Assembly: GCA_964389205.1 (NCBI GenBank)
Contig: CAYMDH010000003.1
Coordinates: 55,702 to 119,701 of the forward strand
Length of the DNA stretch: 64,000 nucleotides
Source: an uncultured Flavobacteriaceae bacterium
Lineage (GTDB): Bacteria > Bacteroidota > Bacteroidia > Flavobacteriales > Flavobacteriaceae
Direction of reading: 5' to 3'
Each line of letters opens with the position of its first letter. Positions within the stretch are counted from its first letter, which is position 1. The notes beneath the pieces are model-generated. The model worked only from the letters and a program-made list of their open reading frames with translations. It was not told the origin of the DNA and searched no databases. Below, piece by piece: positions 44,554 through 48,101 of this stretch. A program made the translations under genes and the position numbers.

Positions 44554-45594
44554 ATGGAACAAAAGATCAAAGCGCATAATAATGTTCTAGAACTTATAGG
44601 AAATACCCCACTTATAAAACTAAATACAATCACAAAAGATATTAAAGGAGATTTTTACGCTAAAGTAGAAGCTTTTAATCCTGGACATTCTACCAAAGAT
44701 AGAATTGCATTGCATATTCTTGAAGAAGCTGAACGAAAAGGAATTTTAAAACCTGGAGATACAATTATTGAGACAACCTCAGGAAATACAGGTTATAGTA
44801 TCGCAATGGTCAGTATTATAAAAGGATATGAGTGTATTCTTGCAGTAAGCTCTAAATCTTCCAAAGATAAAATAGACATGTTGCGTTCTATGGGAGCTAA
44901 AGTATATGTTTGCCCGGCAAATGTAAATGCAGATGACCCAAGGTCATATTATCAAGTAGCTAAGCGAATGCATGAAGAAATTAAAGGATCGGTTTATATC
45001 AACCAATATTTTAATGATTTAAATGTTGATGCACATTATCAAACTACAGGACCAGAACTTTGGGAACAAACTAGTGGCCAAATCACACATTTGGTAGCCT
45101 GTAGTGGAACAGGAGGCACAATTTCTGGAGTTGCTCGATTTTTGAAAGAAAAGAATCCTGATATTAGAATTTTAGGAGTTGATGCATTTGGATCGGTATT
45201 AAAGAAATATCATGAAACTAGAGAATTTGATGTAAAAGAAATCTATCCATATCATATAGAAGGATTAGGTAAAAATTTGATTCCTTCAGTAACAGATTTT
45301 GATATTATAGATAAGTTTACCAAAGTTACTGATGAAGAAAGTGCCCATACAGCTAGAGAAATATCTAAAACAGAAGGTATTTTTGTAGGATACACTAGTG
45401 GCGCAGTTATGCAAGCAGTAAAACAATTGGCAAAAGAACGAGAATTTACTAAAAACAGTAAAGTAGTAGTTATATTTCCAGATCATGGTTCTAGATATAT
45501 GAGTAAGATATACTGTGATAATTGGATGAATTCTCAAGGCTTTTTTGATAGTATACATACTGAAGAAACTCAAAAAATAGAATATATAGAATAA
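44554..45594 (+). CDS. PLP-dependent cysteine synthase / cystathionine beta-synthase family enzyme; candidate cysteate synthase
   Basis: PLP lysine motif ([12 protein letters not shown]), TSGNTG, and GTGGTISG. At 346 aa it is longer than typical CysK. Confidence 0.8.
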
Positions 45595-45620
45595 TATTTT
45601 TTAAAAAATAATGAGACAAT

Positions 45621-45650
45621 AAAAAAGAGAAGTTTAGCTTCTCTTTTTTT
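45621..45650 (+). terminator. rho-independent terminator
   Basis: AAAAA AGAGAAG-tttag-CTTCTCT TTTTTT. Confidence 0.75.
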
Positions 45651-45879
45651 ATAAAGTACAACAGGGTGATTCAAATGAATAATAATTCTTACATTGTGAG
45701 AGCATTGTATTTGATGTTTATTGCTAACAGTAATTTGTTAATAAAAAATAGTTTTTTAGAATACGATCAATAATTGATTTTCGATAGATAATAAGAGGAG
45801 TATGTTTGTCAAAACGCAATAATGAAAAGACAATTTTATTCAATATAGGCATAGTAATTATATTAAAAAAAACGAATGA

Positions 45880-46728
45880 ATGAATAATGTACTTATTACT
45901 GGTGTTTCTTCGGGAATAGGTTATGAAACAGCTTTAAAATTTTTAAATGAAGGGTACCGTGTTTTTGGTAGTGTACGAAAAATAGAAGATGCACATAAAA
46001 TTGCAGATCAATTTAAAACACTATTTATTCCACTTGTTTTTGATGTTATGGATGAGGTTGCTGTTTTAAAGGCAAAAGAAGAGGTAGAAAAACAGTTAGG
46101 TGAAAATGAATGTATCAATTGCCTAATTAACAATGCAGGGATGTCTGTTAATGGACCTTTAGCATATGTTCCAGTAGAAGACTTTAAAAAGCAATTTGAA
46201 GTAAATGTATTTGGAGTAATTAGAATCACCCAAATATTTTTACCCCTATTAGGGTTCAATAATGCTAGAAAAAAAGGAAAGATTATTAATATTGGATCTG
46301 CAGCAGGAAAAATTACGAGACCTTTTATGGCTCCTTATGCAGCATCCAAACACGCTATTGAAGCTATAACAGATGGCTTGCGAAGAGAATTAATAGAGTT
46401 TGGTATTGATGTAATAGTAGTAGAACCCGGCCCAATAAAATCTGATATATGGTCTAAAGCTAAGAGTAGTGATAATAAATATCAACAGACTCCTTATGCA
46501 ACCCATTATGCTAATTTAAACAAAGCTATAGATGGAATGGAGGGAATTGCCATACCAACACAACAATTAGCAAATCTTTTATTTAAAATAGCAGCTCGCA
46601 AGAAAAACAAAACACGATATTTAATTGCCCCAAAAAAATGGTTATTTTGGTTAGCCATTCATACTTTTCCAGATAGGTATATGGATAAAGTTTTTTTAAA
46701 GCAAACTAAGAAGCTTATGAAAAACTAA
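45880..46728 (+). CDS. SDR family oxidoreductase; candidate 3-dehydrocapnine reductase
   Basis: TGVSSGIG, NNAG, and YAASKHA catalytic motif. Confidence 0.8.
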   Translation: MNNVLITGVSSGIGYETALKFLNEGYRVFGSVRKIEDAHKIADQFKTLFIPLVFDVMDEVAVLKAKEEVEKQLGENECINCLINNAGMSVNGPLAYVPVEDFKKQFEVNVFGVIRITQIFLPLLGFNNARKKGKIINIGSAAGKITRPFMAPYAASKHAIEAITDGLRRELIEFGIDVIVVEPGPIKSDIWSKAKSSDNKYQQTPYATHYANLNKAIDGMEGIAIPTQQLANLLFKIAARKKNKTRYLIAPKKWLFWLAIHTFPDRYMDKVFLKQTKKLMKN

Positions 46729-46841
46729 AGCAAATTGTAAGGAACAATTTCAAAATAATAATTATGAAAGCAAGTTAAAAATAATTAATTTTGCATCTTG
46801 GTAAAATTTAACATTTATTTAATAAATACCTCTAAACCTAA

Positions 46842-48101
46842 ATGAAAGATTTATTTGATAGGATAATTGAAAATAAAGGACCACTTGGAAAATGGGCATC
46901 ACAAGCCGAAGGATATTTTGTATTCCCAAAATTGGAAGGTCCTATTTCCAATAAAATGAAGTTTAATGGTAAGGAAGTAATCACTTGGAGTATCAATGAT
47001 TATCTTGGTTTGGCAAATCATCCGGAAGTGCTTAAGATAGATGCAGAAGCAGCTATGGAGCATGGTTGTGCTTACCCAATGGGTGCCAGAATGATGAGTG
47101 GTCATACAGATTTTCACGAACAACTTCAAGATGAATTAGCAACTTTTGTCAATAAAGAAGCTTCATATCTCCTTAACTTTGGATATCAAGGTATTATGTC
47201 TGCTATTGATGCATTGGTTACTAAAGATGATATTATTGTTTATGATGTAGATGCACATGCTTGTATTATAGACGGTGTGCGTCTTCATATGGGAAAACGT
47301 TTTACGTTTAAGCACAATGATATCGAAAGTTTAGAGAAAAACTTAGAGAGAGCTACTAAAATGGCAGAACAAACCGGAGGAGGTATTTTAGTGATCTCTG
47401 AAGGAGTTTTTGGAATGAGAGGAGAGCAAGGGAAACTTAAAGAAATTGTGGCGCTTAAATCTAAATATAAATTCCGGCTAATGGTAGATGATGCGCATGG
47501 GTTTGGAACATTAGGAAAAACCGGAGCAGGAGCAGGAGAAGAACAAGGTATACAAGACGATATAGATGTGTATTTTGCAACTTTTGCCAAATCTATGGCC
47601 AGTATTGGAGCATTCTTGGCTGGAGATAAAGAAGTAATAGATTATCTAAAATATAATTTGCGTTCTCAGATGTTTGCAAAATCATTGCCAATGGTATTTG
47701 TAAAAGGAGCATTGAAACGCTTAGATATGCTACGCACAATGCCAGAACTTAAAAATAAGTTATGGGAAAATGTAGACGCACTTCAAAATGGTTTAAAAGA
47801 ACGCGGTTTTAATATTGGTACTACCTCTAGTTGTGTTACTCCTGTTTATTTAAATGGAAGTATTCCTGAAGCAATGGCGCTGGTAAAAGACCTTAGAGAG
47901 AACCATGGTATTTTTTGTTCTATAGTGGTATATCCTGTAATCCCTAAAGGACTTATTTTACTGCGAATGATACCTACAGCAACGCATACTTTAGAAGATG
48001 TTTCTATTACATTAGAAGCATTTTCAGCGATAAGAGAACGTTTGGAAAATGGTACTTACAAACGATTATCGGCTGCAGTAGCTGCAGCTATGGGAGAATA
48101 A
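46842..48101 (+). CDS. alpha-oxoamine synthase family PLP enzyme (AONS/SPT-like); candidate cysteate-C-fatty-acyltransferase
   Basis: 419 aa with SINDYLGL, DDAHGFG, and the PLP lysine context (ATFAKSMAS). Confidence 0.8.
   Translation: MKDLFDRIIENKGPLGKWASQAEGYFVFPKLEGPISNKMKFNGKEVITWSINDYLGLANHPEVLKIDAEAAMEHGCAYPMGARMMSGHTDFHEQLQDELATFVNKEASYLLNFGYQGIMSAIDALVTKDDIIVYDVDAHACIIDGVRLHMGKRFTFKHNDIESLEKNLERATKMAEQTGGGILVISEGVFGMRGEQGKLKEIVALKSKYKFRLMVDDAHGFGTLGKTGAGAGEEQGIQDDIDVYFATFAKSMASIGAFLAGDKEVIDYLKYNLRSQMFAKSLPMVFVKGALKRLDMLRTMPELKNKLWENVDALQNGLKERGFNIGTTSSCVTPVYLNGSIPEAMALVKDLRENHGIFCSIVVYPVIPKGLILLRMIPTATHTLEDVSITLEAFSAIRERLENGTYKRLSAAVAAAMGE

What the first reader, a model, noticed from the sequence alone, without database searches (positions are those of the whole stretch)
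44554..48101. Three adjacent genes match the enzyme set for sulfonolipid (capnine) biosynthesis
Seen directly, three consecutive same-strand genes encode:
- a CBS/cysteine-synthase-family PLP enzyme (44554..45594);
- an SDR (45880..46728);
- an alpha-oxoamine-synthase/SPT-like PLP enzyme (46842..48101).

Established knowledge:
- In Bacteroidota, capnine is made by CapA (a CBS-like cysteate synthase using O-phosphoserine and sulfite), CapB (an AONS-family cysteate-C-fatty-acyltransferase; the Flavobacterium johnsoniae enzyme is needed for efficient gliding) and CapC (an SDR dehydrocapnine reductase).
- Sulfonolipids are typical of Flavobacteriia.

Inference: this trio is a clustered capA-capC-capB locus. 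The same enzyme classes could alternatively be cysteine synthase plus Kbl, BioF or serine palmitoyltransferase.
Basis: partly seen in the sequence, partly recalled or inferred. Interest (0 to 1): 0.6.

Follow-up and report, generated by a model that had tools for sequence, protein, structure and literature searches.

The report
Capnine sulfonolipid genes capA-capC-capB
Three neighbouring genes in this marine flavobacterium are the known enzyme set for the sulfonolipid base capnine, in the same order as in the bird pathogen where the third enzyme was characterised, so the locus is correctly read but ordinary.

Summary
The three ORFs exist exactly as described. ORF1 passes NCBI's curated CapA cysteate-synthase model (648 bits, cut-off 600). 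ORF3 aligns without gaps to the crystallised Capnocytophaga ochracea CapB (732 bits, against 245 for SPT, 208 for Kbl and 140 for BioF). It keeps all 18 published PLP/cysteate-pocket residues.

The genome has its own Kbl, CysM and a CBS-like protein elsewhere, so the alternative readings are excluded.

The middle SDR is 47% identical over its full length to the biochemically characterised Ornithobacterium rhinotracheale CapC (QAR30703.1). I found that CapC also lies between capA and capB.

Among 301 Flavobacteriales genomes:
- this SDR type occurs in only 19, all with capB;
- it sits directly upstream of capB in 13 of the 14 checked.

This is a new member of a known system.

Other points:
- A second, KdsR-like SDR elsewhere in the genome shows a nearly complementary distribution and may be redundant with capC.
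- Relatives carry a Cupin_8 gene inside the cluster.
- The convergent 372-aa tandem GNAT next to capB is a plausible but unproven candidate for the unassigned capnine N-acylation step.

The parts
44500..44507 (+). TAAATTTG, a Bacteroidota-type -7 promoter box (TAnnTTTG), 47 nt upstream of the capA ATG
   Evidence: One such box lies in each of the three upstream gaps; 0.39 are expected in the 467 nt of gaps (Poisson P = 0.007). The motif is not enriched window-wide (107 found against 111 expected), so this is suggestive only.
44554..45594 (+). capA, a cysteate synthase (O-phospho-L-serine + sulfite -> L-cysteate). It is a fold-type II PLP enzyme without CBS-pair domains. The PLP lysine is inferred to be K48, in the sequence HSTKDR.
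   Evidence: NF053679 CysteaSynCapA scores 648.2 bits against a cut-off of 600; CBS, CysK and CysM models all fall below their cut-offs. The best PDB match is 9K2P at 518 bits, against 283 for CBS.
45621..45656 (+). Terminator-like hairpin (13-bp stem, 3-nt loop) followed by a U-run, directly after capA
   Evidence: MFE -13.1 kcal/mol, z = -2.95, and 1 of 200 shuffles folds as well. The simple terminator scan missed it.
45801..45808 (+). TATGTTTG, a -7-like box 72 nt upstream of the SDR ATG
45880..46728 (+). capC-type SDR, a candidate NADPH-dependent 3-dehydrocapnine (3-ketocapnine) reductase. Motifs: T7-G-x3-G-I-G14, N84-N-A-G87, S140, Y153, K157.
   Evidence: 47% identity (133/283, E 1e-93) to O. 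rhinotracheale CapC, P0142 = QAR30703.1. Same position between capA and capB as in Ornithobacterium. Adjacent to capB in 13 of 14 genomes checked. No NCBIfam model is passed.
46786..46793 (+). TAATTTTG, a -7-like box 49 nt upstream of the capB ATG
46842..48101 (+). capB (CFAT/SulA family), a cysteate-C-fatty-acyltransferase (cysteate + acyl-CoA/ACP -> 3-dehydrocapnine + CO2). The PLP lysine is K250.
   Evidence: 732 bits, residues 1-419 aligned without gaps to PDB 28EH (C. ochracea CFAT); 577 bits to SulA 7U7H; SPT 245, Kbl 208, BioF 140. All 18 pocket residues named in PMC13692747 are identical.
48119..49237 (-). 372-aa tandem-GNAT protein, convergent on capB with 17 nt between the stop codons. 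It is a candidate, unproven, for the capnine N-acyltransferase.
   Evidence: Pfam Acetyltransf_1 scores 30 bits in the C-terminal half only. The AF2 model has pLDDT 84 and pTM 0.83. The best folds are tandem-repeat GNAT amine N-acetyltransferases: 5KF1, 7Q3A, 2WPW and MshD 2C27. The family is present in 104 of 301 genomes, 103 of which have capB. It is adjacent to capB in most genera of the same family and in one genus of another family.
49269..50273 (-). MetA-pathway-type outer-membrane channel (Phenol_MetA_deg), transcribed just upstream of the GNAT gene. Given as context only.
   Evidence: PF13557 scores 111 bits. The pairing with the GNAT gene is conserved in relatives.

Best explanation
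The locus encodes the three known enzymes that make capnine, the sulfonated long-chain base of Bacteroidota sulfonolipids.

- CapA replaces the phosphate of O-phospho-L-serine with sulfite to give L-cysteate.
- CapB condenses cysteate with a branched fatty acyl thioester, with loss of CO2, to give 3-dehydrocapnine.
- The SDR between them reduces the 3-keto group with NAD(P)H to give capnine. It might instead act on the N-acylated keto intermediate, since the order of steps is debated in the literature.

The genes are same-strand neighbours but are probably not one tight operon. capA is followed by a terminator-like hairpin, and each gene has its own TAnnTTTG box. Shown here: family membership of CapA and CapB, homology of the SDR to the characterised CapC, and its conserved placement. 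Inferred: the enzymatic activities, the substrates and the transcription units.
For: CapA passes the curated equivalog model NF053679 (648 against 600 bits), whereas the genome's CBS-like paralogue scores only 460.

CapB scores 732 bits against the C. ochracea CFAT crystal sequence and 577 against SulA, compared with 245 or less for SPT, Kbl and BioF. All 18 of 18 pocket residues are identical.

The SDR is 47% identical over its full length to QAR30703.1, which UniRef names NADPH-dependent 3-dehydrocapnine reductase. The order capA-SDR-capB is found in all five Ornithobacterium genomes searched.

This SDR type occurs in 19 of 301 Flavobacteriales genomes. All 19 have capB, and the SDR is directly upstream of capB in 13 of 14 checked, across six families.

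The genome can supply sulfite: it has two PAPS_reduct genes and a NIR_SIR sulfite reductase. It also has gliding machinery, namely GldM at 438 bits against a cut-off of 180.
Against: No curated model or cut-off exists for CapC, and the SDR passes none of the NCBIfam models.

The SDR tree is a polytomy. The window's clade, the CapC clade and a clade from other phyla (a Chloroflexi MAG and a Pseudobdellovibrionaceae MAG) are about equally close. Monophyly of the cap-linked SDRs is merely not rejected (AU p = 0.68).

CapC itself was shown in vitro only and has not been genetically validated (PMC9304779). In C. gleum and A. finegoldii several unlinked SDRs can do this reduction (PMC11211663).

The genome also holds a KdsR-like SDR at C13:4469-5272. 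It scores higher on the 3-ketodihydrosphingosine reductase model than the window SDR does (266 against 150 bits). It is present in all 43 sampled genomes of the family, so capC may be redundant here. No lipid or expression data were examined.
Confidence: 0.88

Rival explanations
1. capA and capB are the sulfonolipid genes, but the SDR between them is not the physiological ketoreductase. In this view the KdsR-like SDR encoded elsewhere (C13:4469-5272) does that step, and the clustered SDR is redundant or acts on another substrate.
For: The C13 SDR scores 266 bits on NF049977 (KdsR), against 150 for the window SDR. It is present in all 43 sampled genomes of the family and in most Weeksellaceae, always in capB-positive genomes (80 of 80). 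The other 42 of the 43 sampled genomes of the family have no CapC-type SDR, and in most of those whose capB region was fetched capA and capB lie side by side with no SDR between them. Reductase redundancy is documented in C. gleum (PMC11211663).
Against: The clustered SDR is 47% identical to the one SDR shown to reduce 3-dehydrocapnine. It is tied to capB in 13 of 14 genomes checked. The two SDR types are nearly complementary among capB-positive genomes: 2 genomes have both where 8.7 are expected (P = 0.0007, not corrected for phylogeny). That pattern fits two alternative enzymes for one step, not an unrelated role.
Confidence: 0.15
2. The trio consists of ordinary housekeeping enzymes: a cysteine synthase or CBS, a generic SDR, and Kbl, BioF or serine palmitoyltransferase.
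For: The same Pfam families would be hit. The AONS-like protein matches SPT, Kbl and BioF models at 275-294 bits.
Against: All of those matches are far below their curated cut-offs. The genome has a genuine Kbl (707 bits against a cut-off of 493), a genuine CysM (482 against 413) and a CBS-domain protein elsewhere. [quoted passage not shown]
Confidence: 0.02

Closest known systems
Ornithobacterium rhinotracheale capA-capC-capB locus (CapC = QAR30703.1 / UniProt A0A3R5XUE6; Liu et al. 2022, Biochemistry 61:2861, as cited in PMC11211663 and PMC12927429)
   Same: The gene order and strand are the same: capA, SDR, capB. Identities to the window proteins are CapA 62%, SDR 47% and CapB 71%. The SDR has the same length (282 against 283 aa) and the same motifs.
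   Different: The intergenic gaps are much tighter in Ornithobacterium (about 25-30 nt, against 285 and 113 nt here). The Ornithobacterium genomes sampled have no KdsR-like SDR at E <= 1e-60, whereas this genome has both types. The SDRs fall in different subclades of an unresolved tree.
Capnocytophaga ochracea CapA/CapB (C7M8J5 / C7M8J6; CFAT crystal structures 28EH/28FA, PMC13692747)
   Same: CapB aligns without gaps over 419 residues at 732 bits, and all 18 PLP/cysteate-pocket residues are identical.
   Different: In C. ochracea the two accession numbers are consecutive, which I infer means the genes are adjacent. In most genomes of the window's own family whose capB region was fetched, capA and capB are directly adjacent with no SDR between them.
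SulA of Alistipes finegoldii (PDB 7U7H, PMC9304779)
   Same: It is the same CFAT family (577 bits).
   Different: According to PMC10191378, Alistipes makes cysteate with an archaeal-type cysteate synthase rather than a CapA homologue, and its reductases are not clustered (PMC11211663).
Bacterial sphingolipid pathway Spt - bCerS - CerR / KdsR (Caulobacter, Bacteroides)
   Same: The chemical logic is the same: an alpha-oxoamine synthase, a ketoreduction and an N-acylation.
   Different: The amino-acid substrate is cysteate, not serine. The window's CapB scores only 294 bits on the CFB-group SPT model, whose cut-off is 640. No relation between the neighbouring GNAT and bCerS was tested here.

Membership tests
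CapA cysteate synthase (NCBIfam NF053679) | Full-length match above the curated equivalog cut-off, and a better score than on CBS, CysK or CysM models | tested here: met
   648.2 bits against a cut-off of 600, covering 2-329 of 329 profile positions. CBS scores 392 (cut-off 510), CysK 278 (351) and CysM 256 (394).
CapA cysteate synthase (NCBIfam NF053679) | CBS-like catalytic core with a PLP lysine motif but no C-terminal CBS-pair regulatory domains | tested here: met
   The protein is 346 aa with PALP only. HSTKDR at residues 45-50 aligns with HSAKDR of 9K2P. The paralogue on C35 is 453 aa and matches the full length of the cystathionine beta-synthase model (positions 2-454 of 457), i.e. it carries the C-terminal extension that CapA lacks.
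CapA cysteate synthase (NCBIfam NF053679) | Catalyses O-phospho-L-serine + sulfite -> L-cysteate | not testable with these tools
   This needs an enzyme assay.
CapB / CFAT / SulA cysteate-C-fatty-acyltransferase | Closer to characterised CFATs than to SPT, Kbl, BioF or ALAS | tested here: met
   28EH 732 bits, 7U7H 577, SPT 3A2B 245, Kbl 208, ALAS 156, BioF 140.
CapB / CFAT / SulA cysteate-C-fatty-acyltransferase | Catalytic Lys250 plus the cysteate/PLP pocket residues (N52, G81, A82, F113-G114-Y115, H139, C141, E187, D216, H219, F245, T247, A249, M277, F278, K280) described in PMC13692747 | tested here: met
   18 of 18 are identical at the same residue numbers (the alignment has no gaps).
CapB / CFAT / SulA cysteate-C-fatty-acyltransferase | Cysteate-dependent condensation with an acyl-CoA or acyl-ACP | not testable with these tools
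   This needs an enzyme assay.
CapC 3-dehydrocapnine reductase (O. rhinotracheale type) | Classical SDR with a TGxxxGxG cofactor motif, NNAG and a Ser-Tyr-Lys catalytic triad | tested here: met
   T7GVSSGIG14, N84NAG87, S140, Y153 and K157 are all aligned with the same residues in CapC. adh_short scores 160 bits.
CapC 3-dehydrocapnine reductase (O. rhinotracheale type) | Full-length homology to the characterised enzyme QAR30703.1 | tested here: met
   47% identity, 68% positives, 2 gaps, E 1e-93 over 282 of 283 residues. The reference was verified by accession. No curated threshold exists.
CapC 3-dehydrocapnine reductase (O. rhinotracheale type) | Encoded next to capB, between capA and capB | tested here: met
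   This holds in the window, in five Ornithobacterium genomes and in 13 of 14 genomes checked across six families.
CapC 3-dehydrocapnine reductase (O. rhinotracheale type) | Forms one clade with CapC to the exclusion of SDRs from organisms without cap genes | tested here: inconclusive
   The quick ML tree gives a three-way polytomy with a clade that includes Chloroflexi and Pseudobdellovibrionaceae MAG sequences. The constrained tree is not rejected and is slightly better (AU p = 0.68).
CapC 3-dehydrocapnine reductase (O. rhinotracheale type) | NAD(P)H-dependent reduction of 3-dehydrocapnine | not testable with these tools
   This needs an enzyme assay or a knockout.
Kbl / BioF / SPT (alternatives for ORF3) | Passes the curated equivalog cut-off of the family | tested here: not met
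   SPT-CFB 293.5 (cut-off 640), Kbl 287 (460), BioF 275.5 (426). A separate Kbl on C9 scores 707 (cut-off 493).

The most novel reading that the evidence does not exclude
The convergent pair just downstream of capB may supply the still unassigned last step of sulfonolipid synthesis, perhaps together with outer-membrane handling of the lipid. The pair is a 372-aa tandem-GNAT protein (48119-49237, minus strand) and a MetA-type outer-membrane channel (49269-50273, minus strand). In this reading the GNAT N-acylates capnine with a (3-hydroxy) fatty acyl thioester to give sulfobacin-type lipids.

Support: the GNAT family occurs in 104 of 301 Flavobacteriales genomes, and 103 of these carry capB. By comparison, 43 of 168 genomes carrying the neighbouring control gene opdB lack capB. 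The GNAT abuts capB in many genera of this family and in one genus of another family. Its predicted fold is that of tandem GNAT amine N-acyltransferases.

Against: about 72 capB-positive genomes lack it. Its relation to bacterial ceramide synthase was not tested. In Weeksellaceae it is not next to capB.
Probability: 0.3. Interest if true: 0.6.

Novelty: new member of a known kind. Interest (0 to 1): 0.22.

Why it matters
The finding itself only extends a published pathway to one more marine flavobacterium. It would let annotation pipelines name the two genes that lack curated models, capB and capC.

The comparative by-products are more useful:
- The CapC-type reductase is rare: 19 of 175 capB-positive genomes, and 6 of the 93 genera sampled against 61 with capB. 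It is almost always inserted directly upstream of capB.
- It is nearly complementary in distribution to a KdsR-like SDR that is found only in capB-positive genomes. That pattern suggests two non-orthologous reductases for one step, and it could explain why the reductase could not be found by gene context in Chryseobacterium.
- The neighbouring GNAT, and the Cupin_8 gene present inside the cluster in relatives, are concrete candidates for the unassigned N-acylation and hydroxylation steps.

Tried and rejected
- **Kbl, BioF and SPT for ORF3; CysK, CysM and CBS for ORF1.** Rejected by the curated cut-offs and by the separate Kbl, CysM and CBS-like genes in the genome.
- **Sigma-70 promoter scan.** Uninformative: 20 sites found against 26 expected. 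The terminator scan also missed the hairpin after capA.
- **TAnnTTTG motif.** Not enriched window-wide (107 against 111), so the promoter boxes are weak evidence.
- **Liu et al. 2022.** The paper is not held in the library. The CapC reference sequence was instead recovered by searching the Ornithobacterium genus and checking accessions.
- **PDB entry 9K2P.** It is the best match to CapA, but no paper in the library mentions it, so its identity is unknown.
- **The SDR against the PDB.** No match at E <= 1e-25.
- **The GNAT.** Sequence searches were uninformative: no PDB match better than E = 0.65, and only a weak RimI hit in NCBIfam. Any relation to bCerS could not be tested because no reference sequence or structure was at hand.
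- **Truncated output.** The list of capB places was cut off, so capB adjacency in family f10 was checked by fetching 4 of its 9 genomes. The other 5 were not checked.
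Full report
**Observation.** The three ORFs are present at exactly the stated coordinates and on the same strand: 44554-45594 (346 aa), 45880-46728 (282 aa) and 46842-48101 (419 aa). Pfam assigns them to PALP, adh_short and Aminotran_1_2. The window has about 30% G+C. 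Its closest named relatives at this locus are Flavobacteriaceae bacterium R38, Leptobacterium, Sungkyunkwania, Galbibacter and Joostella.

**CapA.** ORF1 matches NCBIfam NF053679 (CysteaSynCapA, an equivalog model) at 648.2 bits. The curated cut-off is 600, and the match covers the whole model. The CBS, CysK and CysM models are all matched below their cut-offs. The best solved structure is 9K2P at 518 bits, against 283 or less for cystathionine beta-synthases. The genome has two paralogues:
- a 453-aa protein that matches the full length of the CBS model (486 bits, just under that model's 510 cut-off) and scores only 460 on the CapA model;
- a CysM that passes its own cut-off.

**CapB.** ORF3 aligns residue 1-419 to residue 1-419, with no gap, to the crystallised Capnocytophaga ochracea cysteate-C-fatty-acyltransferase (PDB 28EH/28FA) at 732 bits. 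It scores 577 bits against SulA (7U7H). The best SPT scores 245, Kbl 208, ALAS 156 and BioF 140. [quoted passage not shown] All 18 that I checked are identical at the same numbering, including the catalytic Lys250. A genuine Kbl is encoded elsewhere, at 707 bits against a cut-off of 493.

**CapC.** The SDR passes no NCBIfam model (best 206 bits, PRK06182; KdsR 150 against a cut-off of 400). It has no PDB relative at E <= 1e-25.

I recovered the reference enzyme as follows:
1. capB neighbourhoods were fetched from 60 Flavobacteriales genomes.
2. A capA-SDR-capB arrangement appeared in one small-genome Weeksellaceae genus.
3. Exact-sequence look-up identified that genus as Ornithobacterium.
4. 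A genus-wide search found the same arrangement in all five of its genomes.
5. One of those SDRs is exactly QAR30703.1 / UniRef A0A3R5XUE6, which UniRef names 'NADPH-dependent 3-dehydrocapnine reductase'. This is the CapC of Liu et al. 2022, as cited in PMC12927429 and PMC11211663.

The window SDR is 47% identical to it over the full length (E 1e-93). The TGxxxGIG, NNAG and Ser-Tyr-Lys motifs are all conserved.

**Distribution.** In 301 evenly sampled genomes of the order:
- capB occurs in 175 genomes and 61 of 93 genera;
- this SDR type (E <= 1e-55) occurs in only 19 genomes and 6 genera, and all 19 have capB.

The SDR lies immediately upstream of capB in 13 of the 14 genomes I could check, across six families. 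The exception is G039. None of the other 42 sampled genomes of the window's own family has this SDR type, and in most of those whose capB region was fetched capA and capB are directly adjacent with no SDR between them. The capA-SDR-capB order is kept in the window's near relatives.

A quick ML tree places the window's SDR in a clade with the cap-linked SDRs of three other families. CapC falls in a second cap-linked clade. A third clade, which includes Chloroflexi and Pseudobdellovibrionaceae MAG sequences, joins them in an unresolved trichotomy. Forcing the Bacteroidota SDRs into one clade is not rejected (AU p = 0.68). Orthology is therefore plausible but not proven. Gene context is the stronger argument.

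**A second reductase candidate.** The genome also encodes a KdsR-like SDR at C13:4469-5272, which scores 266 bits on NF049977. This type occurs in 80 of the 301 genomes. All 80 have capB, and they include every sampled genome of the window's family and most Weeksellaceae, but not Ornithobacterium.

Among capB-positive genomes the two SDR types overlap in only 2, the window's genome and G039, where 8.7 are expected (hypergeometric P = 0.0007, not corrected for phylogeny). This looks like two alternative enzymes for one step. It fits the report that in C. gleum the active ketocapnine reductases are unlinked to cfat and that one of them groups with prokaryotic 3-KDSRs (PMC11211663). It also means capC may be redundant in this genome. 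Radka et al. noted that CapC has not been genetically validated and that the order of reduction and N-acylation is unsettled (PMC9304779).

**Transcription and metabolic context.** capA is followed by a 13-bp hairpin and a U-run. A TAnnTTTG box precedes each of the three genes, with 3 observed against 0.39 expected in the gaps. The motif is not enriched in the window overall. The genes may therefore be separate transcription units. The genome has two PAPS_reduct genes and a sulfite reductase, so sulfite is available. It also has GldM, consistent with a gliding, sulfonolipid-making flavobacterium.

**Surroundings.**
- *Tandem GNAT.* Convergent on capB is a 372-aa protein with a weak C-terminal GNAT hit. 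Its AF2 model (pLDDT 84) is a tandem-repeat GNAT, most like the amine N-acetyltransferases 5KF1, 7Q3A, 2WPW and MshD. The family occurs in 104 of the 301 genomes, 103 of them capB-positive. For the neighbouring control gene opdB, 43 of 168 positive genomes lack capB. The GNAT abuts capB in many genera of the family and in one genus of another family. It is a reasonable candidate for the unassigned capnine N-acyltransferase, but about 72 capB-positive genomes lack it.
- *Cupin_8 gene.* In Galbibacter, Joostella and one genome of another family, a Cupin_8 (JmjC-like) gene sits between capA and the SDR. It is absent from the window's cluster.

**Verdict.** The locus is a new member of a known system, with the same gene order as O. 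rhinotracheale. On its own it is of low interest.

Noticed in passing
window 48119-49237 (-) and 49269-50273 (-): A 372-aa tandem-GNAT protein and a MetA-type outer-membrane channel converge on capB. The GNAT family is almost confined to capB-positive genomes (103 of 104) and is often adjacent to capB. It is a candidate for capnine N-acylation, and some database records mis-name it 'GTP cyclohydrolase'.
   Followed up: partly
L002:5106-5972 (Galbibacter pacificus); also L003, L004, L006, L008, L010, L012 and L057:6291-7136: A 288-aa Cupin_8 / JmjC-like protein is encoded between capA and the SDR in Galbibacter, Joostella and a genome of a different family. This gives a four-gene cluster capA-cupin-capC-capB. 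It may be a sulfonolipid hydroxylase. The window's cluster lacks it; the only homologue in the genome is 33% identical, on C26.
   Followed up: partly
own genome C13:4469-5272 (-), outside the window: A KdsR-like SDR (266 bits on NF049977, below the cut-off of 400) is found only in capB-positive genomes (80 of 80). Its distribution is nearly complementary to the CapC-type SDR, so it is probably the alternative 3-ketocapnine reductase.
   Followed up: partly
L036-L037, L078-L080 against L017-L034: Across near relatives the SDR evolves much faster (56-74% identity) than CapA (78-88%) and CapB (87-94%). Its patchy presence in six families suggests repeated loss or lateral insertion between capA and capB.
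   Followed up: no
window 38579-39619 (+): A GntG-family PLP-dependent threonine-aldolase-like protein (NF041359, 355 bits against a cut-off of 230) lies a few genes upstream. Its position is conserved in relatives, but there is no evident link to the cap genes.
   Followed up: no
window 50659-53121 (+) and 53126-54409 (+): An 820-aa membrane protein with a weak YfhO C-terminal hit is followed by a GT4-family glycosyltransferase. The first is syntenic with the cap/GNAT/OMP block in relatives.
   Followed up: no
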